Source: Candidatus Staskawiczbacteria bacterium (GTDB taxonomy: Bacteria; Patescibacteriota; Minisyncoccia; Minisyncoccales; Staskawiczbacteraceae). From it: a DNA stretch of 64,000 bases. The translations under genes and the position numbers were made by a program. Under the pieces are notes generated by a model. That model was not told the DNA's origin, searched no databases, and worked only from the letters and a program-made list of their open reading frames with translations. The stretch spans positions 28 through 64,027 of the forward strand of contig CAIYRH010000002.1 in the NCBI GenBank assembly GCA_903928565.1, in the 5' to 3' direction. Shown piece after piece: positions 2,923 through 37,317 of this stretch; position 1 is the stretch's first letter; each line of letters starts with the position of its first letter.

Positions 2923-4587
2923 TCAGGCGACGTCGTCGGTGGCCATTTCGGCGTCATCTTCCGGTTGCTCCGGAGTCGTCGCCTCGTGGGTCACCTTCGT
3001 TTGCCACCTTATTTTATCGAGGTACCAGCCAAGGCGGTGACTTGCCATGGTGACCGTTGCGGGGAATCGTTTTCCCTCGAACTCTGCAAGCACGGGCTTG
3101 AGGTTTGATGCAATTTCCATCACCTCGAGCTCACGCTTGCCATCTTCCGCAGGCACCCATTTGACAAGGAGCCCCGGATTGACTACATCCTCGCTGGTGA
3201 CGATTCCATCGAGGTGCAAGAGACACGGCTTGTTCAAGAGGTCGTCCTGAGACTTGCCGTTGAGCCCGAAGAACTCAACGGGCGACAGCTCGCTCACGCC
3301 TTGCATTAGGCGGATTTCCTCCGCCCGTTTTTCGGCGTCGATGGCTGCGACCCATGCCCTGTGGAACATGTACCAGAGCTTCGCCGCTTTGTCGGCCCTT
3401 TTGCGTGCATCTGGATAGGGACAGCGCAGTTTGGCCTTGATTGTATCGGCGAGGTCGAGTTTCTTTCTATCGACCTCCTCGAATTTCCACCCGGTCAGGG
3501 CTTTCCGTCCGAGGCGGACTTCCAACTTCACCATCTCGTCGATGGCGGCTTCCAAGGACCCAACGCCTTTCAAGGGAAAGACGGCGTTCCCGCTGAATTC
3601 CAGGAACAAGTTTCCCCCACCACGCCGGCGCCAAACCATTTTTGGTTTGCCGTCGACGACGATCACGTTGCCGTGGTCGTCGGTGTCTTTGGCGAGGTAG
3701 AACTCGGTGGGAACTGCGATACAGCACTTGCCGTCCGCGGCTTCCATGATCGCCTGCTTGGCCGTGATGTTGACCTCGCTGGTGATGCGAGTCAAGGCCG
3801 CGGAGCGCCGTTGGGCTTCTAAGCGGTCCGACAGGCGAGTCAGCTTGTTAGCAGCCGCGGTGAGGCGGCGAACTTGCCCGGGCAAGAAGCCCAGTTTCGC
3901 GGGAAACTGGAACAACCCGTACCCAACGCGGACCGTTGTGCGGTCTTGTTCCCGGTTGTCGACCGGGACCAACAAGCCTCGTTTGATGAGGCCCTTTGGG
4001 CCGTGGATGAGGTCCTTGATTTGTTTCGACGAGGACCAGGCCATCGTCAGAATCGCGTCAAGGAACCCGAGGGCGGCGGCAGTGAGATACACGCCCGTGC
4101 GAGCCAAAGCTTTGTCGATTTGCTCCTCGGCAGCAGCGATAACCGCCCCCGAGGTTTGCTTGACGGACTGCACGGCGATTTCGTCGCCGGTCGCTTCCGC
4201 ATCGGCGATGGCCTTGAGTGGCGAAAACATGAAAGCGACTGCGGCAGCCATTGCGGCCTCCACTTTCTTGGCGTTTTCCTGCAGTTTTTTCGGGTCGGCG
4301 TCGTCGCCGAGTACTGGGGCGACGAAATCGAAGCATTCTTCCTGTTGGGGAAGAGCAACGGTTTCGCCTTCGGCCGGTTTGGCAACCGAGGCCGCGACGA
4401 GGGCCTTGAGACTCGGCTTGACGGGTTCTTTGGGCCCTTTCTTGCCGCCCTTCTTTTCGGGAAGTGCCGGCTGTTGCGCTTGGGTGCCACCATTGACGGC
4501 GGCTTCCAACACATCGCCGAGGTTTGTTGTCGGCGGCGGGCTGGTGGGCGTCAATGTTAGCTTTTCTAGTTCTGGGGTTGGTTTCAT
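2923..4587 (-). CDS. Orphan high-GC protein, 554 aa, no recognised family
   Basis: Long uninterrupted ORF with strong GC3 codon bias, foreign to the AT-rich backbone. It has its own promoter and terminator. P/T/K-rich N-terminus, one hydrophobic stretch (TGVYLTAAALGFLDAILTMAW), no motif I recognise. Confidence 0.75.
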   Translation of the reverse strand: MKPTPELEKLTLTPTSPPPTTNLGDVLEAAVNGGTQAQQPALPEKKGGKKGPKEPVKPSLKALVAASVAKPAEGETVALPQQEECFDFVAPVLGDDADPKKLQENAKKVEAAMAAAVAFMFSPLKAIADAEATGDEIAVQSVKQTSGAVIAAAEEQIDKALARTGVYLTAAALGFLDAILTMAWSSSKQIKDLIHGPKGLIKRGLLVPVDNREQDRTTVRVGYGLFQFPAKLGFLPGQVRRLTAAANKLTRLSDRLEAQRRSAALTRITSEVNITAKQAIMEAADGKCCIAVPTEFYLAKDTDDHGNVIVVDGKPKMVWRRRGGGNLFLEFSGNAVFPLKGVGSLEAAIDEMVKLEVRLGRKALTGWKFEEVDRKKLDLADTIKAKLRCPYPDARKRADKAAKLWYMFHRAWVAAIDAEKRAEEIRLMQGVSELSPVEFFGLNGKSQDDLLNKPCLLHLDGIVTSEDVVNPGLLVKWVPAEDGKRELEVMEIASNLKPVLAEFEGKRFPATVTMASHRLGWYLDKIRWQTKVTHEATTPEQPEDDAEMATDDVA

Positions 4588-4690: not shown

Positions 4691-4719
4691 AATTATACAT
4701 AAATTTAAGTATATGTCAA
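4691..4719 (-). promoter_or_regulatory. Sigma70-type promoter of the 554-aa gene
   Basis: Minus sense: TTGACA (plus 4714-4719) - 17 nt ending TGt - ATAATT (plus 4691-4696). Alternative reading is TATAAT with a 16-nt spacer. Confidence 0.6.
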
Positions 4720-4772: not shown

Positions 4773-5402
4773 TTAAACCACTTGGTCTAACATAAAAAGT
4801 AATTTTTCCCCGGTAGCGGGGTCTACGTCAACCAGGTCGACAATCTCCTTATTCCAGGCCAGGGCTTCTTCGGTCGGCGGCGCAAGCGAAATGCGTATTC
4901 CGCATTCTCTTGCTTGTTTGAGCATTGGGATGTAGTCCTTATCTGCTGCGGCTAGGCAAATGTCTGTAACATTAGATTGGGAATGAATCATCGACAAAGT
5001 CCAATCAATAATGGCATCGTCAACGGTGTCAACAACATCTTTGTATAGACCAGATTTAGTGTCGAGCTTTGGTTCTGGAAGTTCTAGCTTGGGACATAGC
5101 TCCGTCGTAAAGTTCAACCCGACAATAATTCTGGAGTGCGGGGCGCTAAGATGCTCGGGCACGAAAATTCTCCCGTGACCTTCGGAAATTTTGCCATCTC
5201 TGGCCACGGTTCCGTGGCCCCAAAGTTTTCCATGGCTTTGCACCCACTCTTTTAGTTTTCTAAGCCGGTACTCAAGGTTAACGTCCTCAAAATTATTATC
5301 GTATTTGTCTGCGAGTGAGTAAAAAACATTTTCCCAATCTATGGGTAAAATGTAAACCCTGTTTTCCGGTGGGATTTCCGGCGGGCTGGTTGTTGTTTGC
5401 AT
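4773..5402 (-). CDS. NYN/LabA-like domain protein (putative RNase), 209 aa
   Basis: RVYILPIDWENVFY..., DVVDTVDDAIIDW... and ICLAAADKDYIPMLKQARECGIRISL match the three acidic blocks of the NYN fold. The ORF-track start (5483) is the TTG of a TTGACA -35 box, so I use ATG 5402. Confidence 0.6.
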   Translation of the reverse strand: MQTTTSPPEIPPENRVYILPIDWENVFYSLADKYDNNFEDVNLEYRLRKLKEWVQSHGKLWGHGTVARDGKISEGHGRIFVPEHLSAPHSRIIVGLNFTTELCPKLELPEPKLDTKSGLYKDVVDTVDDAIIDWTLSMIHSQSNVTDICLAAADKDYIPMLKQARECGIRISLAPPTEEALAWNKEIVDLVDVDPATGEKLLFMLDQVV

Positions 5403-5454
5403 GGCTGGCTGGCTGGTTTGATTATCAAAATTCAACTTGAGATTCGATGAATTC

Positions 5455-5483
5455 AATCTATCAATATATTCTAAAATTGTCAA
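5455..5483 (-). promoter_or_regulatory. Sigma70-type promoter of the NYN gene
   Basis: Minus sense: ccTTGACA (plus 5478-5483) - 17 nt ending TGa - TAGATT (plus 5455-5460). Confidence 0.5.
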
Positions 5484-8466: not shown

Positions 8467-11022
8467 ATGGCTAAAGACGAAGATAAAAAAGAAAAACCAA
8501 AAGCGCACGAAGAAAGCAAATCAACAGACAACAACAGGGGAAATGTAAATCAGCGCGAAATGGTTACCGAACTAAAAGAATCATACATTGATTATGCAAT
8601 GTCGGTTATTGTGGCACGCGCTCTTCCCGATGTGAGAGACGGTTTAAAACCTGTTCACCGCAGAATTTTATTTGCAATGGCAGAATCGGGGTTGCGGTCT
8701 AACACAAAGCACAGAAAATCTATGGCGGTGGTTGGAGAAGTTTTGAAAAGTTATCACCCGCACGGAGACACCGCAGTTTACGAATCTTTAGTGCGCATGG
8801 CGCAAGATTTTAACATGAGATACACTTTGGTTGATGGCCAAGGAAACTTTGGTTCAATTGACGGCGACGGCGCTGCAGCTGCTAGGTACACAGAATGTAG
8901 GTTGTCAAAAATTGGTGACGAAATGTTAAAAGACATAGACAAAGACACCGTAAAATTTATTGACAACTACGACGGCATGACCACCGAGCCAACTGTTTTG
9001 CCAAGCCCATTGCCACAATTGCTTTTAAACGGTTCTTTGGGAATTGCTGTTGGAATGGCAACAAACATTCCGCCACACAACTTAACAGAAGTAATTGATG
9101 CTTCAATTCACATTCTAGAACACCCCAAGGCAGAAACAGAAGATTTATTTGAATTTGTGCAAGGCCCCGATTTTCCAACCGGTGGCATAATTTACGACCA
9201 AAAAGAAATAATTACCGCTTACTCTCAGGGCAAGGGCGCTATTTTAATGCGCGGGAAAGCCGATGTTGTTGAAAGAAAAGATGGCTCTGAGCAAATTATA
9301 ATTACAGAAATTCCATATCAAGTGTTAAAATCAACTTTGGTTGAACAAATGGCGGAATTAGTTTCTGAAAAAAAAGTGGAAGGAATAAAAGACATTAGGG
9401 ATTTGTCTGACAGGGAAGGAATGAGAATAGTAATTGACGTTAAAAAAAGCTACCAACCGCAAAGAATTTTAAACAGGCTTTATAAATTTACCAGTCTTCA
9501 AAAAACTTTTCATTTAAACTTGTTAGCATTAGTAGATGGCATTCAACCAGAAATTTTATCTTTGGCAGACGTTTTAAAATATTTTATAAAACACAGAGAA
9601 GAGGTTATTACCCGCCGAACAAAATTTGATTTAGAAAAGGCCAAAGAACGCGCTCACATTTTGGAAGGCTTAATGATTGCCTTAAAAAATATTGACGCGG
9701 TAATTCAAACAATTAAAAAATCTACAGACAAAGAAGAGGCCAGAATTAATTTAATTAAAAAATTTAAATTAACAGAAAGGCAAGCTGTGGCAATTCTTGA
9801 AATGAGATTGCAAACATTAGCTGGTTTAGAAAGAAAGAAAATAGAAGACGAATTAAAGGCAATTTTAGAAACCATAAAAGATTTAATGGCCATTTTAAAG
9901 AGCCCCGAAAAATTAAAAGCCATTATTAAAAAAGAACTTTTAGACATAAGAGAAAAATTTGGCGACAAAAGAAGAACAAAAGTTGTTAAAGGAAAATTAG
10001 GTGAAATTACCGAAGTTGATTTAGTGCCTCTTGAAGAAACAATTGTTACATTAACAACTGGTGGTTACATTAAAAGAATTAACCCAACAACTTACAAAAT
10101 TCAAAAACGCGGAGGTAAAGGAATTATGGGAATGAAAACAATGCAAGATGACATTGTTGAGCACTTTTTGACTGCCTCCACACACGACAATTTAATGTTT
10201 TTCACAGATTCTGGAAAAGTTTTCCAAACGCAGGTTTATGAAATTCCCGAGGGTAACAGGGTGGCGCGTGGCAGAGGTTTGTTAAACTTTTTGGAATTAT
10301 CTAGTGAAGAAAAAGTTTTGTCTTTAGTGCCAATGCCCGCCTCCGCTAAAGCTTCGGCAGGGCAAGCCCGGCAACAAAGCGAAGATAAGTATTTAGTAAT
10401 GATTACTAAAAATGGCAGAATTAAAAAAACTGCGTTGTCGGAATTTGAAAATGTTAGAAAAAGTGGAATTATTGCCATAAAACTTGAAAAAGGTGACGCC
10501 CTTAAAAAAGTTGTTAAAACAAGCGGCGAAGACGACATAATTTTGGCAACCAAAAATGGAACTTCAATTAGATTTAAAGAAAAAGACATTCGGCCAATGG
10601 GCAGAGGAGCTGCCGGCGTAAAAGGTTTGCGCTTAAAAGGTGGAGACGAAGTAATTGGAATGGATGTAATTACAAAAAAACCAACCAAACAATATTTATT
10701 AATTGTTATGGAAAATGGTTATGGCAAACGCACCGACATTTCGCAATATAAAACGCAAGGCCGAGGAGGTTCGGGAATTAAAACAGCAAAAATTACCAGC
10801 AAAACCGGCCACATTATTTTGTCTGCGGTTATAGACGAGCCTGCCACAGCACAAGGTTCTGGAGAAGCAACGGAAGATTTAATTGTTATTTCTCAGCATG
10901 GACAAGTTATTAGAACAAGTGTAAAATCAATATCTTTATTGGGTAGAGCCACTCAAGGAGTAAGAATTATGCGCTTAGACGATGGTGACAAGGTTGCCTC
11001 GGGGGCATGCTTAAAAGACTAG
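8467..11022 (+). CDS. gyrA: DNA gyrase subunit A
   Basis: 851 aa with [15 protein letters not shown], the active-site region [10 protein letters not shown], and C-terminal beta-pinwheel repeats. Confidence 0.95.
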
Positions 11023-11075: not shown

Positions 11076-11636
11076 ATGAATATGAAAAAGGGTTATGTTC
11101 TTAGCTTAAGTTTGTTTGTTGGGTTGTTTTGTGTAGCGCCATTAGCTTTGGGCCAAATTAAAAATCCTTCAAATTACAACGATTTCCCCGCACTCCTTGG
11201 TGGATTGGCAGACAAAATTGGAATGCTTTTGGCTTCATTGGGAGCAATAATGATTGTAATTGCGGGAATATTTTATTTGCTTTCTGCCGGTGTGCCAGAG
11301 CGCGTTAACACAGCTAAAAAAGCCCTAATGTATGCTGTTGGTGGAATTATTGTTGGTTCAACAGCTGTTGCCATTTCCACTTGGGTGCAACAAGTTGCAC
11401 AAGGCAACGATGTAAATACAATTATTAACCAAATAGCCAGTTGGGCAGGAACATTTGTGTCTGCATTGGGTGGAATAATGTTTATTGTTGCAGGAATGAT
11501 TTACTTGCTTGCAGGTGGAGACCCAACAAAAATTAAAATGGCCAAAACCGCCCTTATTTATGCAGTAGCCGGCATTGCCATTGGATTACTAGCTACCACC
11601 ATTGTAGGAATAATAAGAACAGCAGCCGGTTTTTAA
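11076..11636 (+). CDS. TrbC/VirB2-like mini-pilin, duplicated (two modules)
   Basis: Signal peptide, then two copies of the module AG(I/M)(F/I)YLL(S/A)(A/G)G.P..(V/I)..AK.AL.YAV.G, each flanked by hydrophobic helices. Confidence 0.55.
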   Translation: MNMKKGYVLSLSLFVGLFCVAPLALGQIKNPSNYNDFPALLGGLADKIGMLLASLGAIMIVIAGIFYLLSAGVPERVNTAKKALMYAVGGIIVGSTAVAISTWVQQVAQGNDVNTIINQIASWAGTFVSALGGIMFIVAGMIYLLAGGDPTKIKMAKTALIYAVAGIAIGLLATTIVGIIRTAAGF

Positions 11637-11663
11637 CATATCAGCCAATTTTATAAAGGTCGC

Positions 11664-11699
11664 CGCCCCAGAAGGGGCGAGCCTCGCCCAAAGGGCGGG
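11664..11699. repeat. GC-rich twin-hairpin mini-element (intergenic copy)
   Basis: CGCCCC-AGAA-GGGGCG followed by C(T)CGCCC-AAA-GGGCG(G)G in an otherwise AT-rich spacer. Confidence 0.6.
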
Positions 11700-11741
11700 T
11701 AAAAAAAGAAAAAAATTAAAACAACAAAGTAAATTAAAAAA

Positions 11742-12074
11742 ATGAAAAAAATTACATTAAGTTCAGTTGTAGTTAGTGCACTAACATTACCTTTTTTGGC
11801 ATTTGCCATTGATTCAAGCACACCTCCACAAGAAGCTTCAATAAGCGACTTCCCAACATTAATTGCCCTAATTGAAAAAGTTATGTGGTGGGTTTTTGGA
11901 GCCATTGCAGTTATTATGTTTGTGGTGGCAGGTATTTTGTTTTTAACAGCTCAAGGACAACCAGAAAAAGTTCAAGCAGCAAGAAGCGCCTTTATTTGGG
12001 GAATTGCCGGCGTGGTAGTTGGAATTATTGCCTATTCAATTTTGGCAATCATTGGAAACGGCCTAGGTGTATAG
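11742..12074 (+). CDS. TrbC/VirB2-like mini-pilin
   Basis: 110 aa. Signal peptide, then helix - AGILFLTAQGQPEKVQAARSA - helix. Paralog of its neighbours. Confidence 0.55.
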   Translation: MKKITLSSVVVSALTLPFLAFAIDSSTPPQEASISDFPTLIALIEKVMWWVFGAIAVIMFVVAGILFLTAQGQPEKVQAARSAFIWGIAGVVVGIIAYSILAIIGNGLGV

Positions 12075-12107
12075 TTAGAGTCTATTTATGAATTTTTGGT
12101 TTTTGTA

Positions 12108-12129
12108 CCCGCGGCCTTCGGGCCGCGGG
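12108..12129. repeat. GC-rich palindromic hairpin
   Basis: CCCGCGGCC-TTCG-GGCCGCGGG, a perfect 9-bp stem with no downstream U-tract. Confidence 0.55.
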
Positions 12130-12154
12130 GCAAAAACCTAGCAAACTTTTTAAA

Positions 12155-12478
12155 ATGAAAAAATTATCGCTTTTAACTTTGTTAGCGGGTTTAACTTTGC
12201 CTTTTGGTTTGGTTTCTGCTCAAAATTTAGGCAAATACGGAAACAGCATTTATCTTGGAGACATTTTGGCCAGTATTGAAACAACAACTTGGGTTATTTT
12301 CAGCTGTATTGTTGTGGTTTGTTTTGTAATTTCTGGCATTGCTTTTTTAACAGCGCAGGGTGCACCAGAAAAATTAAAATTAGCAAAAGCCGCCGTTTTG
12401 TGGGGAGGAGCAGGCGTGGTTGTTGGAATTATTGCCTATTCAATTGAAGTTATTATTGGCTCGGCGTTGGGAGTTTAA
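12155..12478 (+). CDS. TrbC/VirB2-like mini-pilin
   Basis: 107 aa with SGIAFLTAQGAPEKLKLAKAA between two hydrophobic helices, plus a signal peptide. Confidence 0.55.
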   Translation: MKKLSLLTLLAGLTLPFGLVSAQNLGKYGNSIYLGDILASIETTTWVIFSCIVVVCFVISGIAFLTAQGAPEKLKLAKAAVLWGGAGVVVGIIAYSIEVIIGSALGV

Positions 12479-12506
12479 ATTTTGCAAACAAAATATTTAA
12501 AATACT

Positions 12507-12824
12507 ATGAAGAATAAAAAATTTAAGTTTTTAATTTTATTATTGTCAGTTTTACTTTTGCCAGCAATGGCGTTTGCTGCTAATAATACTACCGTGCAGG
12601 GCATAGTTGATGCTGCTGTTGCAACAACTTTTTACATTGCCGACGGTGTGGTGGTAATTCTTTGGGTTGTTACTGGGTTTTTATTTTTAACAGCACAGGG
12701 CGCACCAGAAAAAGTTAAAGTAGCAAAAGCTGCTTTATTTGCTGCTGCTGTGGGCACGGTGGTGGTTATTGTGGCAAACTCGGCGGTTTACTTGGTAAGC
12801 GACGCCTTTAATCTTGGACTTTAA
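12507..12824 (+). CDS. TrbC/VirB2-like mini-pilin
   Basis: 105 aa with the TGFLFLTAQGAPEKVKVAKAA core and a signal peptide. Confidence 0.55.
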   Translation: MKNKKFKFLILLLSVLLLPAMAFAANNTTVQGIVDAAVATTFYIADGVVVILWVVTGFLFLTAQGAPEKVKVAKAALFAAAVGTVVVIVANSAVYLVSDAFNLGL

Positions 12825-12851
12825 ATTAAAATTTATTAATTAAAAAAAATC

Positions 12852-13181
12852 ATGAACAAAAAAATATTTTTAGCCTTAATAGCCGTTGCAGTGATTGCGC
12901 CGGTTATGTCTTATGCTGCTGGTACTAATAATGCTTGCGACGTTATTAATGCTTTTAAAACTATATTTGAGCAAGTTGGGTCCGCTGTTGTTATAATTGG
13001 TTGGATTATTACAGGGGTTCTTTATTTGTTGGCAGGTGGAGACCCAGGTAAAATTAAAACAGCAAAGGCGGCTTTAGTGGCTTGCGTTATTGGTACGGCT
13101 GTAATTGTTTTATCGGTAACAGCTTTTACTTTTGTGAATAGCGCTTTGAATTTAGGCGGTACTCAAGGATCTCAGTGTTAA
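12852..13181 (+). CDS. TrbC/VirB2-like mini-pilin
   Basis: 109 aa with the TGVLYLLAGGDPGKIKTAKAA core and a signal peptide. Confidence 0.55.
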   Translation: MNKKIFLALIAVAVIAPVMSYAAGTNNACDVINAFKTIFEQVGSAVVIIGWIITGVLYLLAGGDPGKIKTAKAALVACVIGTAVIVLSVTAFTFVNSALNLGGTQGSQC

Positions 13182-13199
13182 TATAAATATAAATAAAGA

Positions 13200-13235
13200 G
13201 GGCGCCCGCAAATTGCAGGGCGCCCTTTTGTTTTG
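13200..13235 (+). terminator. Intrinsic terminator of the mini-pilin array
   Basis: GGGCGCCC-GCAAATTGCA-GGGCGCCC followed by TTTTGTTTTG. Confidence 0.6.
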
Positions 13236-13258
13236 TCTCGCCCCATGTGGGCGAGACC

Positions 13259-13843
13259 CTATTGCCCGGTTGCTTCGGCCATTGTTCTATTGGCAACGGC
13301 CTCGGCGTCATGAGCAAGTTCCCAAGTGCGCTGGGCAGTATAGTCCTTGGCACCATAGCGAGCCTCGGCATCTTGGGCGTGGCTCCGAATCTCCTCGGCC
13401 TTTTTGACCAGTCGGTTCGCTTGTGCGATTCGATTGTTCCGTAGGTCCGCCAGTGTTATTGGCCGAACTGCGGGCTGTGGTGCCGTGGCGGGCGACGCTG
13501 GCGGTGGCATTGCTAGTGGTGGCGGTGATGCCGGTGGCGGATTTACTCCGGCCCGCATTTGCGCCATCGCCGACTTCATTGCCGACATTTCGGCGTTGAG
13601 GCCGTTGATGACGCTCGTCAGCCGGACGATTTCCGCCACTTCCTGCTGGCTTGCAGGAGCGGGCGTCGTCGTGGTTGCTGGTGCTGGTGCCGTCGCCGTG
13701 GCTGGGGCGGTCGTCTTCTTCTCGACGACCGTTTCAGTCGTCGTTGTCACGACTGTTGCCGGCTTGTAGCAGTTTCTTAGGCTGCATACAATTGCCAACA
13801 GCAAGACGCCGACTAACAGGGCTCCGAATTTCTTGATGTCCAT
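13259..13843 (-). CDS. Orphan high-GC membrane-anchored/secreted protein, 194 aa
   Basis: N-terminal anchor MDIKKFGALLVGVLLLAIV, T/A/P linker, amphipathic helix (EVAEIVRLTSVINGLNAEMSAMKSAMAQM), Pro-rich block, helical tail. Has its own promoter. Confidence 0.7.
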   Translation of the reverse strand: MDIKKFGALLVGVLLLAIVCSLRNCYKPATVVTTTTETVVEKKTTAPATATAPAPATTTTPAPASQQEVAEIVRLTSVINGLNAEMSAMKSAMAQMRAGVNPPPASPPPLAMPPPASPATAPQPAVRPITLADLRNNRIAQANRLVKKAEEIRSHAQDAEARYGAKDYTAQRTWELAHDAEAVANRTMAEATGQ

Positions 13844-13917
13844 ATGATTAGTCTGGTTTGGTTGGTGGGGTTGGGGAGTTAAGTTCTCAATGAGCGGTCA
13901 GGCTCATTCATACATTT

Positions 13918-13946
13918 ACTATATCATAGTAAAAACATACTGTCAA
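13918..13946 (-). promoter_or_regulatory. Sigma70-type promoter of the 194-aa gene
   Basis: Minus sense: ccTTGACA (plus 13941-13946) - 17 nt ending TGa - TATAGT (plus 13918-13923). Confidence 0.6.
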
Positions 13947-13957
13947 GGGTTTGCGCG

Positions 13958-14000
13958 AAAAAAAATGGCGGTGCACTCGAAATGAATCGAGAACACCGCC
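13958..14000 (-). terminator. Intrinsic terminator of the 484-aa gene
   Basis: Minus sense: GGCGGTGTTCTCGA-TTCATT-TCGAGTGCACCGCC (14-position stem, one mismatch, one G-U) followed by ATTTTTTTT. Confidence 0.75.
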
Positions 14001-14024
14001 CTTGGGTTTATTGTTTTGAGCTTG

Positions 14025-15479
14025 TTACCTTCCGCGGCCGCCTGAGCGACCGCCCGTTGAGCGCATTGGCGCCGAATGCTGCACTGGTGCAGAACGTTGC
14101 ATTTGGCGCGGTTGCGCCATTGGACGTTGCTGTACCGGAGCGCGTTGTTGCACGCGTTGTTGCATTTGGCGTGGCTGTTGCACGCGTTGTTGCTGGACGC
14201 GTTGGTTGCGGTACGTAGCAGACGGTGCCACGCGCTGCTGTGGCTGACGTGTCACAAAACGCGATGACTGCCGGTTCGGCTGGTTGCGGATGGTCTGTTG
14301 GTAGCCGTTGCGACTACCGTTCGAGTTTCCGCGGTTAGCCAAGTTGCCGTTGCCAGTTGGGCTCTGCGAGTGCCTGGCACTTTGCTGGCCACCGGTTGAA
14401 CCGGGGGAACGCGAGTGGCTCGCACTCTGCTGGCCACCGGTTGAACCCGGTGTTCGCGAGTGGTTGTTCGCAATTTTGGCGTTGTCGCCGTTGTTGTTGT
14501 GACGGCTCAAGGTGCTCGTCACGCCGGCATTGCTGCCAGTGCCGGTGGTGCCGTTGGTGCCGGTGTGGGCGTTGCGCCCAGTGCCGTTGTTGCCAACGGT
14601 TCCGGTGTTGCCTGTGTTGCCAGCGCCCGTGTTGCCGTTGGTCCCGGCTCCGGCATTCCTGCCGGTGCCATTCCCAACGAAATTTGGGTCATCTTGTGGG
14701 CCAGGGCCCCTTCCGTCGGGGCACGTTACCGTGCCACCGCCACCACCACCTCCGTGGTGGTTGCCGTGGTTGTTGCCACACTGCTGGCGCTGCTGTTGCC
14801 ATTGGCCACATTGCTGCGGCATGGGCGGGTAAAAGAACCCACCCTGTTGTTGCGACTGGCACTGCGTTTGCTGCTGTTGTTGGCACTGCACCACGGGTGG
14901 TTGGAAATTATATCCACCACCGGCACCGTAGGACTGAGTTTGCGGGTACATGAACCCGCTGCCGACCTGTGAGGTTTCGGCGGACAAGCTGACGGCGACG
15001 TTCACGTCGCTGCCGCTGCTGTACGGTTGCTGTTGGTAGTCGGTAGTAGTCCCAGTCGTATACAATGACTGACGTCCTTGATAGCACGACGGGCATGAAC
15101 GCGAATACGAACCGCGGGCGCCGTAACGGGTGTTGTCGGCGCACAGTTGTCCTTGTTGACCCAACGTATCCAGAAAACCCTTGAACTCGGCAGCCAAGTT
15201 TTTGACCTCGTCGGCCACGTTCTTGACCTGTTCCGAGATTGATACGACCTGGCCGGTTAGCCAAGTAACTTGTTCCCCTAAACGGTTGGTCATGGGGTCA
15301 CGAGCTAGCGGGATTGGTTGGACCGGCGCGGGGGCCGGGGTTACGGTTGTGGTTGTGGTGGTTTGTTTCTCGGTGGCTGTGACGCCACCGACCGGCTTGC
15401 CATCGTCTCCAGCGTAAAGCGGAGGCACGGCGAGAATCATCGAGGCGAAAAATGTCGCCATTGTTGCGATGGTTTTCAT
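14025..15479 (-). CDS. Orphan high-GC secreted low-complexity (Q/N/G/T-rich) protein, 484 aa
   Basis: From ATG 15479: signal peptide MKTIATMATFFASMILAVPPLYAG, T/P linker, amphipathic helix, Cys/Gln-rich core, G7 run, N/T/G block, 45-nt tandem repeats, QQRVQQ repeats. The ORF-track start 15602 lies inside the promoter. Confidence 0.7.
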   Translation of the reverse strand: MKTIATMATFFASMILAVPPLYAGDDGKPVGGVTATEKQTTTTTTVTPAPAPVQPIPLARDPMTNRLGEQVTWLTGQVVSISEQVKNVADEVKNLAAEFKGFLDTLGQQGQLCADNTRYGARGSYSRSCPSCYQGRQSLYTTGTTTDYQQQPYSSGSDVNVAVSLSAETSQVGSGFMYPQTQSYGAGGGYNFQPPVVQCQQQQQTQCQSQQQGGFFYPPMPQQCGQWQQQRQQCGNNHGNHHGGGGGGGTVTCPDGRGPGPQDDPNFVGNGTGRNAGAGTNGNTGAGNTGNTGTVGNNGTGRNAHTGTNGTTGTGSNAGVTSTLSRHNNNGDNAKIANNHSRTPGSTGGQQSASHSRSPGSTGGQQSARHSQSPTGNGNLANRGNSNGSRNGYQQTIRNQPNRQSSRFVTRQPQQRVAPSATYRNQRVQQQRVQQPRQMQQRVQQRAPVQQRPMAQPRQMQRSAPVQHSAPMRSTGGRSGGRGR

Positions 15480-15601
15480 GAGGTTGTTGGGGTTGGTTTG
15501 GGGTTGAGGGTTTGAGGTTGATGGTTCATCAACAGAAAGCTTCCTGACGCGAGTCAGAAAAAGGTAAAAGCTTCGAGATGTCAATGAACCACTGATATGC
15601 A

Positions 15602-15630
15602 AACCATATCATATATATGCCTTGCTGTCA
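15602..15630 (-). promoter_or_regulatory. Sigma70-type promoter of the 484-aa gene
   Basis: Minus sense: ccTTGACA (plus 15625-15630) - 17 nt ending TGa - TATGGT (plus 15602-15607). Confidence 0.6.
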
Positions 15631-15729
15631 AGGCTAATTCACATATTTTTCGTCACGATAATTATAATAAAAATTTATGAATTGAATATTAATTATTATT
15701 TTGTTATACTGGGGTAAAATTACAAATAA

Positions 15730-15811
15730 GCCGGCGTGGCGGAATTGGCATACGCGCATGCCTTAGAAGCATGTTTCGCAAGAATTGTGAGTTCGAGTCT
15801 CACCGCCGGCA
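15730..15811 (+). tRNA. tRNA-Leu (anticodon UAG)
   Basis: Acceptor GCCGGCG/CGCCGGC, anticodon stem CATGC/GCATG, loop CTTAGAA, long variable arm, T-arm GTGAG-TTCGAGT-CTCAC. Confidence 0.85.
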
Positions 15812-15815
15812 CACT

Positions 15816-34354: not shown

Positions 34355-35680
34355 ATGAAAAAAATATTATTCGTAATATTTCTACTAACCACTGTTTTAA
34401 CGTTTCAACCCGCGCATGTTTTTGCTGTTGATAATAAGGCTCAGCCAAACGGCATAACAAATTGTTTTGATTATTATCACTTTCAAAGTGTTCAAACAAT
34501 CATAGTTGCTGAAAACCATAATATTTCAGCTGGCGATAAAATAACTTTCTCTGGAAAAATAAATAACCAAAATAATTACCCAATTGTTTCGGGCACTCTT
34601 TACGTAAAAATTATGCGAAGTGCTGGTTTTTCAATGGCAAATGGTTTTGATGTTGTTGACCAATTTGTAGCAAAAGAAAATGTTATAATTCCTGCCAATG
34701 GAAGTACTAATGTTTCTTTTCCATGGAAAGTGCCGGTGGCCACAACTTCGGGAACGTACAAATTAGTTAGTTATTTTGTAGTTGATAATAAGTTTAATTT
34801 ATTGGGCTTAAGTTTTACAGACGACATTACTGGAAACATTTCTGAATTTATTGTTGCGGGGCAAAAAAACAATGTGCAGTTTGATAAAGCGGGTGTTGTT
34901 GTAAATAAAAACCCGTATGGAGTTGCCAGTTTTGCACCAATGATTCCTAATAAAGAGGCCGCAGATGTTTCATTAAAAATAAAAAACACAACTGCCGAAG
35001 ACGAAAATGTTAAAGTAGATTACAGCTTGTATGAATGGGACAGCATGAACCCAGCTAATTTTGTGCGAACAACTTCACAAAATGTAAATGTAAAAGCCAA
35101 TTCAACTGCCACAACAGAAATTACTATAAACGACAACACCGCTTCAGTTTATTATTTAATTGCAACGTTAAATTATAAAGATTCAAAATCTATTGTGGGC
35201 ATTAGGTTTGTTAGGCCAGAAAATAATAGGTTAAGACTTAACTTCCCTTCAATAAATAATTTTCCAATAAAAAAGGGAGAAAACTCTACTGTATTTAGTT
35301 GTTTTCACAATGGTTCGGCAAGCGTGCAACCGGTTAATGGAAAATTAGAACTGCAGGTTTTAGATAGTTTGGGAAAAGTTGTAAGCAATTTCACATATGC
35401 GGGGCCAATTAGTGGAGCAATGACAGCTGCTAAAAAAGATTTTGTTTCAAAAACAACTTTAGACCATTTTTATGTTTTGGCAAAATTGTATGACGGAAAT
35501 AAATTAGTTGACCAATCTAAATTGGAATATGACTGCCAAAAAATAGACCCAAAAACTTGCAACCCAAAACCAAATGTTTGGGTGTATGTTATTTTAGTTA
35601 TTATTATATTGTTGGCAATAATTATTCCGCGAGTTATTAGTGCAAAGAAAAAAGTTGTAGAAAAAACAAATGAAATTTAA
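34355..35680 (+). CDS. Secreted beta-rich protein with C-terminal TM anchor, 441 aa
   Basis: Signal peptide MKKILFVIFLLTTVLTFQPAHVFA and C-terminal anchor VWVYVILVIIILLAIIIP-RVISAKKK. No family recognised. Confidence 0.7.
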   Translation: MKKILFVIFLLTTVLTFQPAHVFAVDNKAQPNGITNCFDYYHFQSVQTIIVAENHNISAGDKITFSGKINNQNNYPIVSGTLYVKIMRSAGFSMANGFDVVDQFVAKENVIIPANGSTNVSFPWKVPVATTSGTYKLVSYFVVDNKFNLLGLSFTDDITGNISEFIVAGQKNNVQFDKAGVVVNKNPYGVASFAPMIPNKEAADVSLKIKNTTAEDENVKVDYSLYEWDSMNPANFVRTTSQNVNVKANSTATTEITINDNTASVYYLIATLNYKDSKSIVGIRFVRPENNRLRLNFPSINNFPIKKGENSTVFSCFHNGSASVQPVNGKLELQVLDSLGKVVSNFTYAGPISGAMTAAKKDFVSKTTLDHFYVLAKLYDGNKLVDQSKLEYDCQKIDPKTCNPKPNVWVYVILVIIILLAIIIPRVISAKKKVVEKTNEI

Positions 35681-37313
35681 TTTAAAAATAATTTTCATCG
35701 TTGCCCTTACGGCTGTTTTGTTGACTCCACAAATATCTTCTGCCTATGCTGTACCGCAAAGCAAGAGCCTTAGTATACCTTTTAATTGGAGTAATTTAAA
35801 CATTACTATAAATAGTACTACGCCGTGGGAGGGGTATAATTTGAATGGCCTAAGTTACCAAGCAGCATACGGAGTGGGAGCTGCCACTATAAGTGGGGGC
35901 GTTGTAGGGTCAACAATTAATGATCAGGGCAATGTTACCTGTAACCAACAAGTTATTTTTAAAACTACTAAATCTGCAGTTTGGAACCAAACCGGTAATG
36001 TTTACGGCACGCCATATGCAGAATGGGGTACGGGAACGCCCATATTTCCATATGCAAATTTATTATTTTCTTATATTCCATCTTATACGGGTGCCCCATC
36101 TTGTCCAAGCCAGTCAAGGAAGTTTTATGTAAGCTCTGTTGTAACGCCACCGCAAGTTTCTTATTCTGTAAGCGGACTTAGAAATTGCACTAGTGGCACA
36201 GACGCTGACGGAGAATCTTATGTAATATGCACAACGTCTGGCGTAGAAAGTACCAATAGCATAACCTTTACTTTTACATCAGCCAATGCTGCCGCCACCT
36301 TTTATCAGGCATATTCAGATTATTACGATGGAACCAGCTGTTGTATTAACCTTGGCGGTGGTTCAACTTGCCACACAACCCCTGGCGCAACTTATCTTTA
36401 TCAAGCCAGTGTTAATCACATAGACAGCATGACATATAGTATGCATGTTGCTGTAGTAAACGGTGCGTGTGGAACAGCCGCTAATACTAGTGCAACTACC
36501 GGCTCTTATGTGTGGCACAATGGTGGCCAAACAGATACTTTTTCCGCCGCACAAATGTGTTCTTCTGGCGACACGCCAGCGGGTGTTAATAGTGTAATTC
36601 TTGGCGGTAACGTGGGTGATCAGGCTACGTGGACTTGTAATGGTCCTTGTGGCACGCCATCAACTTGTACCATAACAAGAACACCAACTGGTCCTGGTGT
36701 TTGCGACCCTACCAGTACAATACAATATGGCGACACCGCTAGCAGTTTTGCTGGTAATCTTTGCACTACGGGGATTTCAGTACAATCTAATTCTTCACAA
36801 ACAGCATGGACCCCAACATTCCCAACATCGGGGCACTCGGTAAGCTGGTGGTGTTATAAGGTTGGCGGAAGTTGGTCTGCCCAATGTACGGCCTCAAAAG
36901 CTGGCCCGGGCGCTTGTGGCCCGGCATCAACAGCAACATACAATAGTTGTTCAAGCAATTACTCAGGCGATTATTGCAGTTCGGGAATTCCTGTTACATC
37001 AACTTCATCAACTACATTAGGTTATCCAACGTTTCCTGCACACTGGTGGTGTTATGGCACTAATGGAGTTTACTCACCCGAATGTCATATTACAATTCCC
37101 CCGCCAACTAATGGAGCTTGCAACACAGCAGTGGGAAGTTACCCTTATCCTGGAGTGGCATATGCATTACATGCAACATTTCCAACCAGTGGTTTTTGCT
37201 CGTCTGGAGTGGTTAGGTTAAAATCTACATATTATTACAGGGTTCGCGCCACCAACGCCGGCGGACAAACAAGCGCTCCATCTGATGCTGTTGGTGTAAC
37301 AACGCCGCCATAA
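35670..37313 (+). CDS. Secreted Cys-rich repeat protein ending in an Fn3 F-G strand fragment, 547 aa
   Basis: Signal peptide, about 4 copies of the G.C...(L/F)C..G...W.C...C...(R/K) module, then an abrupt STYYYRVRATNAGGQTSAPS tail. Confidence 0.75.
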   Translation: MKFNLKIIFIVALTAVLLTPQISSAYAVPQSKSLSIPFNWSNLNITINSTTPWEGYNLNGLSYQAAYGVGAATISGGVVGSTINDQGNVTCNQQVIFKTTKSAVWNQTGNVYGTPYAEWGTGTPIFPYANLLFSYIPSYTGAPSCPSQSRKFYVSSVVTPPQVSYSVSGLRNCTSGTDADGESYVICTTSGVESTNSITFTFTSANAAATFYQAYSDYYDGTSCCINLGGGSTCHTTPGATYLYQASVNHIDSMTYSMHVAVVNGACGTAANTSATTGSYVWHNGGQTDTFSAAQMCSSGDTPAGVNSVILGGNVGDQATWTCNGPCGTPSTCTITRTPTGPGVCDPTSTIQYGDTASSFAGNLCTTGISVQSNSSQTAWTPTFPTSGHSVSWWCYKVGGSWSAQCTASKAGPGACGPASTATYNSCSSNYSGDYCSSGIPVTSTSSTTLGYPTFPAHWWCYGTNGVYSPECHITIPPPTNGACNTAVGSYPYPGVAYALHATFPTSGFCSSGVVRLKSTYYYRVRATNAGGQTSAPSDAVGVTTPP

Positions 37314-37317
37314 AAAA

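What the first reader, a model, noticed from the sequence alone, without database searches (positions are those of the whole stretch)
13236..15630. High-GC orphan island 2: two secreted low-complexity proteins between the mini-pilin array and tRNA-Leu
Seen: the backbone is AT-rich (line 9721-9780 has 15/60 G+C by my count), but 13259-15479 is extremely GC-rich (line 14521-14580 has 43/60) with GC-biased third codon positions. The island holds only two minus-strand genes. Both start with a signal/anchor peptide, then a Thr/Ala/Pro linker (TTTTETVVEKKTTAPATATAPAPATTTTPAPA versus TATEKQTTTTTTVTPAPAPVQP), then an amphipathic helix. The larger one continues into Q/C-rich, G7, N/T/G-rich and QQRVQQ-repeat tracts ending in an RGG-like tail. 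Each gene has its own near-consensus promoter. The upstream gene has a strong intrinsic terminator, and a 9-bp hairpin (13235-13257) sits 1 nt after the downstream stop. I recognise no protein family. Inference: a recently acquired or compositionally isolated pair of secreted, intrinsically disordered/prion-like surface or matrix proteins. They converge on the TrbC-like array and could be functionally linked to it.
Basis: partly seen in the sequence, partly recalled or inferred. Interest (0 to 1): 0.8.

Follow-up and report, generated by a model that had tools for sequence, protein, structure and literature searches.

The report
GC-rich envelope-gene slot in a Staskawiczbacterium
Two fast-evolving, probably cell-surface proteins sit in an old, inherited insertion slot of a tiny AT-rich bacterium, and they belong to a wider set of GC-rich orphan genes that share one near-perfect promoter and a structured RNA leader, which nobody seems to have described.

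Summary
Window 13259-15479 is 59% GC against a 37% backbone. It holds two minus-strand genes, A (194 aa) and B (484 aa), with GC3 of 0.63-0.64 against 0.21-0.36 elsewhere. Each has its own extended -10 consensus promoter and a strong terminator.

It is not a chimera, because three independent assemblies and a syntenic 738-kb contig reproduce the junctions. It is not a recent acquisition. All 10 members of the window's Staskawiczbacteria clade carry an insert between the T4SS-pilin array and tRNA-Leu(tag). Most other Paceibacteria have 9-265 bp there.

Promoters and leaders are 70-80% conserved with the nearest relative. The coding sequences are unalignable, apart from a 24-nt perfect hairpin.

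A is a membrane-anchored helical protein with one distant homolog. B is an exported helix followed by about 360 predicted-disordered residues and a basic Q/R tail.

All four GC-elevated genes in the window, and 75% of the strict-consensus promoter matches in 1.33 Mb (relatives plus this window), show the same pairing of consensus promoter and GC-rich gene. Many also have a boxA-like, covarying 5' stem-loop.

Function (envelope or coat proteins) and the cause of the persistent GC-richness are inferred, not shown.

The parts
14025..15479 (-). Gene B, 484 aa. It has a Sec-type signal peptide (MKTIATMATFFASMILAVPPLYA|GDD), a Thr/Pro linker and a long helix (residues 62-120). About 360 low-complexity residues follow (Q/G/S/Y with 8 Cys, G7, N/G/T repeats, S/G/Q repeats). 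The tail (396-484) is Q/R-rich with net charge +18 and ends GGRSGGRGR.
   Evidence: ORF and translation; GC1/2/3 0.59/0.55/0.64 for the ORF as listed, 14025-15602; segment composition, charge and Cys positions; AF2; only a self hit among 5.8e9 proteins; P(no stop) 2e-7.
13259..13843 (-). Gene A, 194 aa. It has an N-terminal TM anchor (3-24), a Thr/Ala/Pro linker, a helix (66-97), a Pro-rich linker and a conserved C-terminal helical hairpin (131-191).
   Evidence: ORF; AF2 with pLDDT about 80-84 in the C-terminal hairpin; distant homolog P0004 with the same architecture (z 9.9); no fold or PDB match.
15603..15631 (-). Promoter of gene B: TTGACA, 14 nt, TGATATGGT (extended -10).
   Evidence: same design in all counterpart genes.
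15480..15596 (-). 5' leader of gene B. The conserved box GUUCAUUGACA (15589-15579) forms the 5' arm of a long stem-loop (15592-15521; P0/P1/P2). A 41-nt C/A-rich, G-free, SD-less tract (15520-15480) runs up to the AUG.
   Evidence: Fold -28.5 kcal/mol, z -4.9; nhmmer leader-family hit E 2e-10; 69% identical to L004 over 305 nt, including the tRNA.
13958..14000 (-). Intrinsic terminator of gene B (GGGCGGUG...CACCGCC followed by U8).
   Evidence: -25 kcal/mol, z -5.6.
13918..13946 (-). Promoter of gene A: TTGACA, 14 nt, TGATATAGT.
13844..13911 (-). 5' leader of gene A (short type). The hairpin AAUGAGC-cugacc-GCUCAUU (13908-13889) has a 3' arm that begins the box GCUCAUUGAGAA (13895-13884). A C/A-rich SD-less tract follows.
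   Evidence: Fold z -3.2; exact box match; 80% identical over 71 nt to the L004 gene-2 upstream region.
13191..13257 (.). Two hairpins after gene A's stop. The first is the 9-bp hairpin at 13235-13257. The second is GGGCGCCC...GGGCGCCC at 13191-13234, flanked by A- and T-runs. It is a bidirectional terminator shared with the plus-strand pilin array.
   Evidence: I6; -41.5 kcal/mol, z -6.7.
14646..14669 (-). A 24-nt hairpin inside gene B: GGC-a-CCGGCA[GGAA]UGCCGG-a-GCC, coding for part of the NGTGRNAGA motif. It is 100% identical in L004, although the flanks cannot be aligned.
   Evidence: fold -19.9 kcal/mol, z -2.9. Function unknown.
14366..14647 (-). Internal tandem repeats of gene B: 45-nt x2.2 at 14366-14463 and 42-nt x2.7 at 14536-14647. 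Further short repeats lie in the tail.
12852..13181 (+). Left boundary of the slot: the last of five T4SS-type pilin genes (PF18895).
15730..15812 (+). Right boundary of the slot: tRNA-Leu(tag). The insert lies on its 5' (promoter) side.

Best explanation
The region is the occupied state of an old, vertically inherited, variable gene slot between the T4SS-pilin array and tRNA-Leu(tag) in one clade of Candidatus Staskawiczbacteria (Paceibacteria, CPR). It holds two autonomous expression cassettes.

Each cassette has the same parts: a near-consensus sigma-70 promoter with an extended -10; a 5' leader that starts with a conserved boxA-like 12-mer embedded in a stem-loop; an unstructured C/A-rich tract (no SD) before the AUG; a GC-rich ORF; and a strong intrinsic terminator.

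The products are most likely abundant envelope proteins. A is a bitopic membrane protein that holds a helical hairpin away from the membrane on Thr/Ala/Pro and Pro-rich spacers. B is an exported helix followed by a long disordered Q/G/N/T-rich, cysteine-containing region and a strongly basic Q/R tail that could bind anionic wall polymers or nucleic acid. In related genomes the B counterpart is a lipoprotein.

Their primary sequences drift at about the neutral rate. Only architecture and composition are retained, whereas the promoters and leaders are under purifying selection.

The GC-richness is not a mark of recent transfer. It is a property of a whole class of consensus-promoter cassettes in these genomes.

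Shown: the anatomy, the synteny, the conservation pattern, leader covariation and the class association. Inferred: high expression, surface location, the role of the leader (Nus-type antitermination and/or mRNA stabilisation) and the reason for the composition.
For: Not a chimera: contigs from other assemblies cover window 13067-15805 and 13008-15384 at 99.96% identity. The two mismatches lie outside the genes.

Slot: tRNA-Leu(tag) lies 9-265 bp from the pilin array in 25 loci. There is a 1.5-3.5 kb insert in WIN, L004, L005, L007, L012, L035, L063, L073 and L083, and truncated inserts in L047, L016, L006, L048, L010, L011 and L009. An NJ tree of ValRS puts 10 of 10 members of the window's clade in the occupied state.

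Orthology with L004: promoter and leader regions are 69-80% identical, and a 24-nt block is 100% identical. The proteins are nearly unrecognisable (E 0.06 and 1.6; z 3.2 and -0.2). Four-fold sites of the flanking ValRS and HSP20 are 50-60% identical against about 30% at saturation, so neutral-rate drift is enough to explain the loss of alignment.

Architecture is conserved. Gene-1 counterparts have a lipobox or signal peptide, a coiled coil, Y/G/Q/S low complexity and an RGG/SR tail. Gene-2 counterparts have a TM anchor, a P/A/T linker and coiled coils. Partial BLASTP links run from 3e-9 to 6e-4.

A has a homolog at the same locus in another population.

Leader family: nhmmer finds the roughly 120-nt module before 18 or more such genes. 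Leader stem-loops fold with z -3.2 to -4.9. For P1/P2, 84.5% of cells are paired against 27-61% when slid, 8 of 13 pairs show double changes, and 0 of 500 shuffles reach the covariation score.

Class association: 75% of 32 strict consensus promoters precede DNA at least 8 GC points above the locus mean, against 3.8% of random positions, p 1e-16. In the window, 3 of the 4 matches to the 14-nt-spaced pattern are at GC-elevated genes. The fourth such gene, island 1, has the same design with one base less before the -10.
Against: No expression, localisation or abundance data exist.

Signal-peptide and disorder calls rest on sequence inspection and single-sequence AF2. WIN_B lacks the lipobox that its counterparts have.

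Homology of WIN_A and WIN_B to most positional counterparts is not statistically demonstrable, so replacement by unrelated genes of similar style cannot be excluded. L047 and L012 show that slot content can change.

The class also includes apparently cytoplasmic proteins (the 554-aa island-1 protein, an NYN-like protein, a metallophosphoesterase and a DHH hydrolase). The cassette grammar therefore does not itself imply a surface role.

The persistence of GC3 at 0.63-0.73 under an AT-biased background has no demonstrated cause.
Confidence: 0.55

Rival explanations
1. Ancient horizontal transfer from a very GC-rich donor into the ancestor of the clade. Since then the genes have undergone passive, still incomplete amelioration. 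The GC-richness is a fading relic and nothing maintains it.
For: The codon dialect is typical of a GC-rich genome: both C3 and G3 are raised, and AGA, TTA and ATT are avoided. 14 of 25 cassettes carry an SD motif that native genes lack. GC varies among descendants from 0.42 to 0.57 for the insert. A rough decay estimate from 4-fold divergence allows it if the ancestral GC3 was about 0.9.
Against: No donor homolog exists among 5.8e9 proteins for A, B or the globular 554-aa island-1 protein. Descendants of equal age range from GC3 0.41 to 0.73. The same promoter and leader precede many unrelated GC-rich genes at other sites and in distant Paceibacteria, which a single transfer does not explain.
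Confidence: 0.2
2. The cassettes are exchanged laterally among Paceibacteria, for example by transformation and recombination in conserved flanks or through the conserved promoter/leader module. The slot is therefore repeatedly refilled from a GC-richer shared pool rather than evolving in place.
For: GC-enriched inserts occur at the same slot in distant lineages (L048, L063 and L073; ValRS 45-60% identical), and L048 and L063 carry closely similar leaders. Slot content and orientation differ in L047 and L012. The proteins are orphans.
Against: There are no mobility genes, target duplications or viral or plasmid matches. WIN, L004 and L035 share subclade-specific leader features (the C/A tract and the short gene-2 leader), as expected for vertical descent. 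The assemblies that cover the island are identical within it.
Confidence: 0.15
3. Recent horizontal acquisition of a genomic island next to a tRNA gene.
For: Sharp compositional boundaries, adjacency to a tRNA gene and orphan proteins.
Against: The slot is occupied in all 10 clade members with conserved regulatory DNA. The insert is on the 5' side of the tRNA. There is no integrase and there are no flanking direct repeats.
Confidence: 0.04
4. Assembly chimera, or ORFs that are an artefact of GC-rich non-coding DNA.
For: GC-rich DNA yields many spurious ORFs in other frames. The other assemblies break near the island (13067 and 15805).
Against: The junctions are reproduced by independent assemblies and by synteny in a 738-kb contig from another site. 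ORF B is improbable by chance (2e-7). Promoter, leader, signal peptide and terminator are all in register. A has a homolog with conserved residues.
Confidence: 0.02
5. Targeted diversification, such as a diversity-generating retroelement or another hypermutation system, acts on gene B. The conserved GC-rich hairpin with a GGAA loop would be the target-recognition element.
For: The perfectly conserved hairpin lies inside an otherwise scrambled ORF. The flanking sequence is rich in Asn (AAC) codons. From memory, DGRs are common in CPR.
Against: No template-repeat copy occurs in 13-16 kb, only internal low-complexity repeats. No reverse transcriptase was seen near the locus. Assemblies from several samples are identical across the genes. 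The hairpin is mid-gene, not at the C-terminal end.
Confidence: 0.03

Closest known systems
Phage 'morons' and other autonomous accessory transcription units
   Same: A single gene is bracketed by its own sigma-70 promoter and a factor-independent terminator. It is inserted between unrelated genes and its base composition differs from its neighbours.
   Different: It is not in a prophage and has no viral or plasmid relatives. It is inherited vertically in a fixed chromosomal slot. The cassettes share a conserved structured leader.
Nus-factor/boxA processive antitermination leaders (rrn operons, lambda nut, CRISPR-array and suhB leaders; PMC5725501, PMC7665894)
   Same: A strong promoter is followed within about 10-25 nt by a 12-mer, G(Y)TCATTGA(A/C/G)A. 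This matches 9 of 11 positions of the gamma-proteobacterial consensus GYTCTTTAANA, and a hairpin lies next to it. In metagenome contig L310 the identical box, and in two others a looser CATTGAAA-type box, lies between a strong promoter and a 16S rRNA gene. The downstream RNA is C-rich and G-poor, which from general knowledge is the kind of RNA Rho prefers.
   Different: The box is usually base-paired in the predicted fold (P0 or a small upstream hairpin), and its pairing partner covaries. It may therefore be a stem arm rather than a single-stranded protein site. The organism's own rrn leader, nusB, nusE and rho were not available for checking.
5' stem-loop mRNA stabilisers and leaders of very abundant envelope protein genes (ompA, lpp, S-layer genes)
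   Same: Monocistronic genes with a very strong promoter, a stable stem-loop a few nucleotides from the predicted 5' end, a strong terminator, an exported structural-looking product and fast sequence divergence between relatives.
   Different: The proteins have no S-layer or Lpp-type domains. B is mostly low-complexity and disordered. Abundance is untested.
Mycoplasma variable surface lipoprotein loci (Vlp, Vsp, Vsa)
   Same: A minimal-genome, host-associated lineage. The 5' regulatory region and signal peptide are conserved ahead of highly divergent, repetitive, low-complexity surface (lipo)protein bodies.
   Different: There is no multigene array, no homopolymer or invertible switch, and no within-population variation in the available assemblies. 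WIN_B lacks a lipobox. The GC-rich composition has no parallel.

Membership tests
tRNA-associated genomic island (recent HGT) | Deviant base composition and codon usage | tested here: met
   GC 0.59 vs 0.37 and GC3 0.63-0.64 vs 0.21-0.36, with a different codon dialect.
tRNA-associated genomic island (recent HGT) | Integration at the 3' end of a tRNA gene with a flanking direct repeat, plus an integrase or other mobility gene | tested here: not met
   The insert lies 5' of tRNA-Leu. There are no flanking repeats, and only two ORFs, neither with a mobility domain.
tRNA-associated genomic island (recent HGT) | Absent from close relatives | tested here: not met
   All 10 genomes of the clade are occupied, and L004 shares the promoter and leader DNA.
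boxA / Nus-factor antitermination leader | boxA consensus sequence in the transcribed leader, close to the promoter | tested here: inconclusive
   GUUCAUUGACA (gene B) and GCUCAUUGAGA (gene A) match 9 of 11 positions of GYTCTTTAANA (PMC5725501). They lie about 10-25 nt downstream of the -10 element. [quoted passage not shown]
boxA / Nus-factor antitermination leader | The same motif in the organism's own rRNA leader, with nusB, nusE (and rho) present | not testable with these tools
   No rRNA operon or Nus gene is present in the window or the fetched loci. Only unrelated contigs (L310, L247, L286) show the box upstream of 16S.
boxA / Nus-factor antitermination leader | NusB/NusE binding and read-through of terminators | not testable with these tools
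   This needs biochemistry or reporter assays.
Structured cis-regulatory leader RNA (new motif) | Recurrent in independent genes and genomes, with compensatory base changes | tested here: met
   nhmmer and CM hits precede 11-18 genes. 8 of 13 pairs show double changes, and 84.5% of cells are paired against 27-61% when slid (the alignment was fitted to the model). There is no Rfam match. The CM did not recover gene B's leader at E<=1. Its membership rests on nhmmer (E 2e-10) and on its fold.
Variable surface lipoprotein system (Mycoplasma type) | Lipoprotein signal peptide (lipobox Cys) | tested here: not met
   WIN_B has no Cys before residue 113. Counterparts in L004, L035, L012 and L063 do have lipobox-like LxGC or IASC motifs.
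Variable surface lipoprotein system (Mycoplasma type) | Phase-variation switch (homopolymer tract in the promoter spacer, or an invertible segment) and a multigene array | tested here: not met
   No such tracts or inverted repeats flank the promoters. Assemblies from several samples are identical in the genes.
Diversity-generating retroelement target | A template/variable repeat pair with a reverse transcriptase | tested here: not met
   No TR-like copy occurs in 13-16 kb. The search for an RT was limited to inspection of the window ORFs, not a full domain scan.
T4SS pilin (PF18895), neighbouring array | Pfam T4SS_pilin domain | tested here: not met
   A and B have no hit, whereas two of the neighbouring pilin genes scanned as controls do.

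The most novel reading that the evidence does not exclude
Paceibacteria possess a dedicated expression module. It consists of an rRNA-like consensus promoter and a boxA-like, covarying 5' stem-loop leader. It is often followed by a Shine-Dalgarno site in genomes whose ordinary genes have none. The module specifically drives a class of GC-rich, rapidly evolving orphan genes, including the envelope pair studied here. The module, through Nus-type antitermination and/or mRNA stabilisation, together with the U-poor GC-rich coding sequence, would be a selected way to express these genes in an AT-rich, SD-less, ribosome-poor cell. On this reading the GC-richness is actively maintained rather than a trace of foreign origin.
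Probability: 0.3. Interest if true: 0.8.

Novelty: new variant of a known kind. Interest (0 to 1): 0.62.

Why it matters
CPR bacteria are thought to live attached to other cells, and very little is known about their surface molecules or their gene regulation. This locus offers three things.

1. Candidate abundant, fast-evolving envelope proteins at a defined, comparable genomic slot.
2. A previously undescribed conserved promoter-and-leader RNA module that marks a whole class of orphan genes. It can be searched for in any CPR genome.
3. A clean natural case in which extreme GC and codon deviation persists in a vertically inherited locus. This challenges the routine reading of compositional islands as recent horizontal transfer.

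All three can be tested with existing lake metatranscriptomes and with simple reporter assays.

Tried and rejected
- **Protein family and structure searches.** Pfam, PHROGs, NCBIfam, PADLOC, PDB sequence search and Foldseek on the A model gave nothing meaningful. The only results were a compositional 'New_glue' hit at E 0.004 and generic helical hairpins at E>0.7.
- **Word-indexed searches of 5.8e9 proteins** for A, B and the island-1 protein returned self hits only.
- **Profile-profile comparison** of A and B with alignments of their positional counterparts was not significant.
- **Rfam**, at gathering and at permissive thresholds, found only tRNAs and noise.
- **Promoter-plus-box pattern scans** of viral and metagenome contigs were too unspecific. 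They gave 240 matches, mostly unrelated strong promoters, though they yielded the true members L208 and L269 and the rRNA-leader examples.
- **A stricter leader pattern and protein A against viral contigs**, and the island DNA against phage and plasmid collections, found nothing.
- **Leader attenuator (terminator) reading.** It was weakened when the U-run proved to pair with the A-run of the box (P0).
- **Covariance model R1** did not recover the gene-B or L004 leaders at E<=1.
- **Other ideas dropped.** A second promoter in the box, a CodY-like operator, an integron attC site and IS200/IS605-type end hairpins were considered by eye. They were dropped for lack of matching features.
- **Literature searches** for GC-rich islands or SD usage in CPR found nothing relevant.


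Full report
**1. Observation.** The window is an AT-rich genome fragment of 38% GC overall, or 36.6% without the two islands. It carries ftsH, rpsA, gyrA, a five-gene T4SS-type pilin array, tRNA-Leu(tag), hsp20, valS and a type IV pilus cluster.

The valS scan of species-representative genomes identifies the organism as Candidatus Staskawiczbacteria (Paceibacteria, CPR). The sample names point to the Buck et al. stratified-lake metagenomes.

GC3 is 0.63 for gene A (13259-13843, minus, 194 aa) and 0.64 for gene B (14025-15479, minus, 484 aa; GC values computed on the ORF as listed, 14025-15602). Every ordinary gene has 0.21-0.36. Codon choice is that of a different dialect: ATC 0.76 vs 0.03, GTC 0.46 vs 0.02, AGA 0.04 vs 0.48.

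**2. Not an artefact.** Contigs from other assemblies, including a MEGAHIT-style contig and a Logan contig, cover window 13067-15805, 13008-15384 and 13258-14399 at 99.96-100% identity. The two single mismatches lie in the tRNA and in a terminator loop. A 738-kb contig from a different study has the same gene order with a GC-rich insert at the same place. ORF B is not a by-product of GC-richness, since the chance of 484 stop-free codons is 2e-7.

**3. What the locus is.** In 25 Paceibacteria loci, tRNA-Leu(tag) follows the last pilin gene after only 9-265 bp. That spacer holds the pilin terminator and the tRNA promoter.
- In WIN, L004, L005, L007, L012, L035, L063, L073 and L083 a 1.5-3.5 kb insert sits exactly there.
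- L047, L016, L006, L048, L010, L011 and L009 show truncated versions of it.

On a ValRS neighbour-joining tree all ten members of the window's clade are occupied. Sister lineages are mixed, and a few distant lineages are occupied sporadically. The insert is therefore old in this clade, not a recent arrival. It lies on the 5' side of the tRNA and has no integrase and no flanking repeats.

**4. Conservation pattern.** Against the close relative L004, blastn aligns the following:
- hsp20 at 85%;
- the tRNA plus the promoter and leader of gene B at 69% over 305 nt;
- the promoter and leader of gene A at 80% over 71 nt;
- a single 28-nt block inside gene B.

The rest of both coding regions is unalignable. 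The proteins are barely related by BLASTP (E 0.06 and 1.6). A block-shuffle test still gives z 3.2 for B against its L004 counterpart and nothing for A.

Four-fold degenerate sites of the flanking valS and hsp20 are 50-60% identical, against about 30% expected at saturation. Sequence under no positional constraint would thus already be beyond alignment. The island proteins appear to evolve at roughly the neutral rate, whereas their regulatory DNA is under purifying selection.

An exhaustive HMMER search of 1.84e9 representatives found one homolog of A. This is P0004, with 34% identity over residues 55-190 and pairwise E 1e-14. It lies on an 822-bp contig from another lake sample. It has the same promoter, box, C/A-rich leader and terminators, and what appears to be (not checked) the 3' end of a pilin gene on the opposite strand.

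**5. The proteins.**
- Protein A: AF2 (single sequence, mean pLDDT 69) gives a TM helix (3-24), a disordered Thr/Ala/Pro linker, a helix (66-97), a Pro-rich linker and a helical hairpin (131-191, pLDDT about 80-84). The hairpin is the part conserved in P0004.
- Protein B: it has a Sec-type signal peptide and a confident helix (62-120). Everything beyond residue 123 is below pLDDT 50. It has 8 Cys, and its tail (396-484) has net charge +18.

Positional counterparts keep the same designs. Gene 1 is a lipoprotein or secreted protein with a coiled coil, Y/G/Q/S low complexity and an RGG/SR tail. Gene 2 is TM-anchored with a P/A/T linker and coiled coils. Only some pairs are detectably homologous.

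I infer extracytoplasmic envelope proteins, a membrane-anchored stalk and a matrix or coat component. This is inference from architecture only.

**6. The unexpected part: a shared expression module.** All slot genes in all loci have TTGACA, 14-15 nt, then TGnTATAAT. Within about 10-25 nt there follows a conserved 12-mer, G(Y)TCATTGA(A/C/G)A. An nhmmer profile of the roughly 120-nt module finds it before at least 18 such genes, including gene B (E 2e-10), and in no viral locus.

In the long form (gene B) the box pairs with a segment about 55 nt downstream (P0). This encloses two further helices, P1 and P2. In the short form (gene A) the box pairs with a partner just upstream.
- All leaders tested fold far better than shuffles, with z -3.2 to -4.9.
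- P1 and P2 covary (CAGCUG/CAGCUG, CAGUUG/CAACUG, AAGCUU/AAGCUU; CUGAC/GUCAG, GGCGC/GCGCC, CUUUGCC/GGCAAAG). Of the cells, 84.5% are paired against 27-61% in slid controls. 8 of 13 pairs show changes on both sides, and 0 of 500 shuffles reach the score. The caveat is that the alignment was fitted to the model.
- P0 also covaries by eye: GAACAU/AUGUUC in L006 and GCCC/GGGC in L063.
- Rfam has no match.

The box matches 9 of 11 positions of the gamma-proteobacterial boxA consensus GYTCTTTAANA (PMC5725501). In the metagenome contig L310 the identical box, and in two others (L247, L286) a looser CATTGAAA-type box, lies between a strong promoter and a 16S rRNA gene. A Nus-factor loading site, as used for rRNA and CRISPR arrays to resist Rho (PMC7665894), is therefore the best available reading. 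A 5' stabilising stem-loop or an RNase III site are equally compatible. None of these is tested.

**7. A gene class, not a single island.** In the window, three of the four matches to the 14-nt-spaced consensus pattern sit in front of GC-elevated genes: A, B and the NYN-like gene at 4773-5402. The fourth GC-elevated gene, the 554-aa island-1 gene at 2923-4587, carries the same design with one base less before the -10. The island-1 protein is also a strict orphan.

Across 1.33 Mb (the related loci plus this window), 32 strict promoter matches were found. Of these, 75% precede DNA at least 8 GC points above the locus mean, against 3.8% of random positions (p 1e-16).

Native genes of these genomes have essentially no Shine-Dalgarno motif (2 of 42 in the window). 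By contrast, 14 of 25 cassettes do. The WIN, L004 and L035 subclade (and, by eye, the L323 contig) uses a G-free C/A-rich tract instead. Most cassette proteins lack any Pfam domain.

**8. Why GC-rich?** This is unresolved.
- A recent transfer is excluded.
- A single ancient transfer with passive decay would need an ancestral GC3 near 0.9. It does not explain the spread of 0.41-0.73 among descendants of equal age, or the many unrelated cassettes elsewhere.
- Recurrent replacement from a shared GC-richer pool is suggested by distant occupied lineages and by changed content in L047 and L012. However, there are no mobility signatures and no viral or plasmid relatives.
- Active maintenance, meaning selection for U-poor stable mRNA or a biased repair process, is compatible with the data but unsupported by any direct test.

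**9. Verdict.** This is a real and unusual locus. The 'recently acquired island' reading is wrong, and 'secreted disordered proteins' is reasonable. The link to the pilin array is positional only, since most genomes with the array have no insert.

The main value lies elsewhere: a conserved promoter/leader module that marks GC-rich orphan genes in Paceibacteria, and a vertically inherited locus that keeps a foreign-looking composition.

Noticed in passing
window 2923-4587 (minus), promoter about 4692-4719: This is 'island 1', a 554-aa non-repetitive protein with GC 0.59 and GC3 0.71. It has the same consensus promoter, a box-like hairpin (GUCCUUUGAUAC) and a C/A-rich leader, followed by a terminator. 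It is a strict orphan among 5.8e9 proteins and hits no family in Pfam, PHROGs, NCBIfam or PADLOC.
   Followed up: partly
window 4773-5402 (minus), promoter 5455-5483: A 209-aa protein of intermediate GC (GC3 about 0.46) has a faint NYN/PIN-like signal (E 0.06, seen only for the longer TTG-start ORF 4773-5483; the 209-aa version had no Pfam hit). Its promoter is of the same type, and its leader is C/A-rich (aaccagccagccagcc). It looks like a partly ameliorated member of the same cassette class.
   Followed up: partly
window 14646-14669 (minus); L004 14239-14262: A 24-nt hairpin with a GGAA loop lies inside gene B. It is 100% identical between two genomes whose flanking coding sequence is unalignable. 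This suggests selection at the RNA or DNA level. It is absent from the L035 and L007 counterparts.
   Followed up: partly
whole window, gene starts: Ordinary genes have A/T-rich upstream regions with no Shine-Dalgarno motif (2 of 42). Several have TATAAT only 6-8 nt before the ATG (for example 11076 and 34355), which suggests leaderless mRNAs.
   Followed up: partly
window 11076-13181 (plus): An array of five T4SS-type pilin (PF18895) paralogs, the first of which is a two-domain fusion. The array is conserved next to tRNA-Leu(tag) across many Paceibacteria. The last paralog is only 39% identical between WIN and L004, while the second is 74% identical.
   Followed up: partly
window 35670-42180 (plus): Two large proteins with signal peptides (547 and 1620 aa) have GC2 of 0.60 but normal GC3 (about 0.30). 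This is a compositional bump (0.44-0.46 GC) caused by amino-acid content and not by codon usage. It is a useful contrast to the islands.
   Followed up: no
L012 14354-15334 (minus): In one relative the slot also contains an AT-rich gene with a Fic/DOC motif (HPFKDGNGRTGR) between two GC-rich cassettes.
   Followed up: no
L047 13452-16053: In another relative the slot holds different GC-rich genes. These are a 433-aa TM-anchored protein on the opposite strand (GC3 0.73) and a 307-aa HEAT-repeat protein (PF13646, E 3e-7). They have divergent back-to-back promoters of the same type.
   Followed up: partly
L008 about 12200-13016 (minus): A cassette with the same promoter encodes a DHH-family hydrolase that matches PADLOC candidate defence models (PDLC01071, E 1e-32).
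   Followed up: no
L048 15135-15632: A cassette with a textbook long leader encodes an extreme repeat protein (PARPVVVR/APVARAPVA units, GC 0.71), truncated by the contig end.
   Followed up: no
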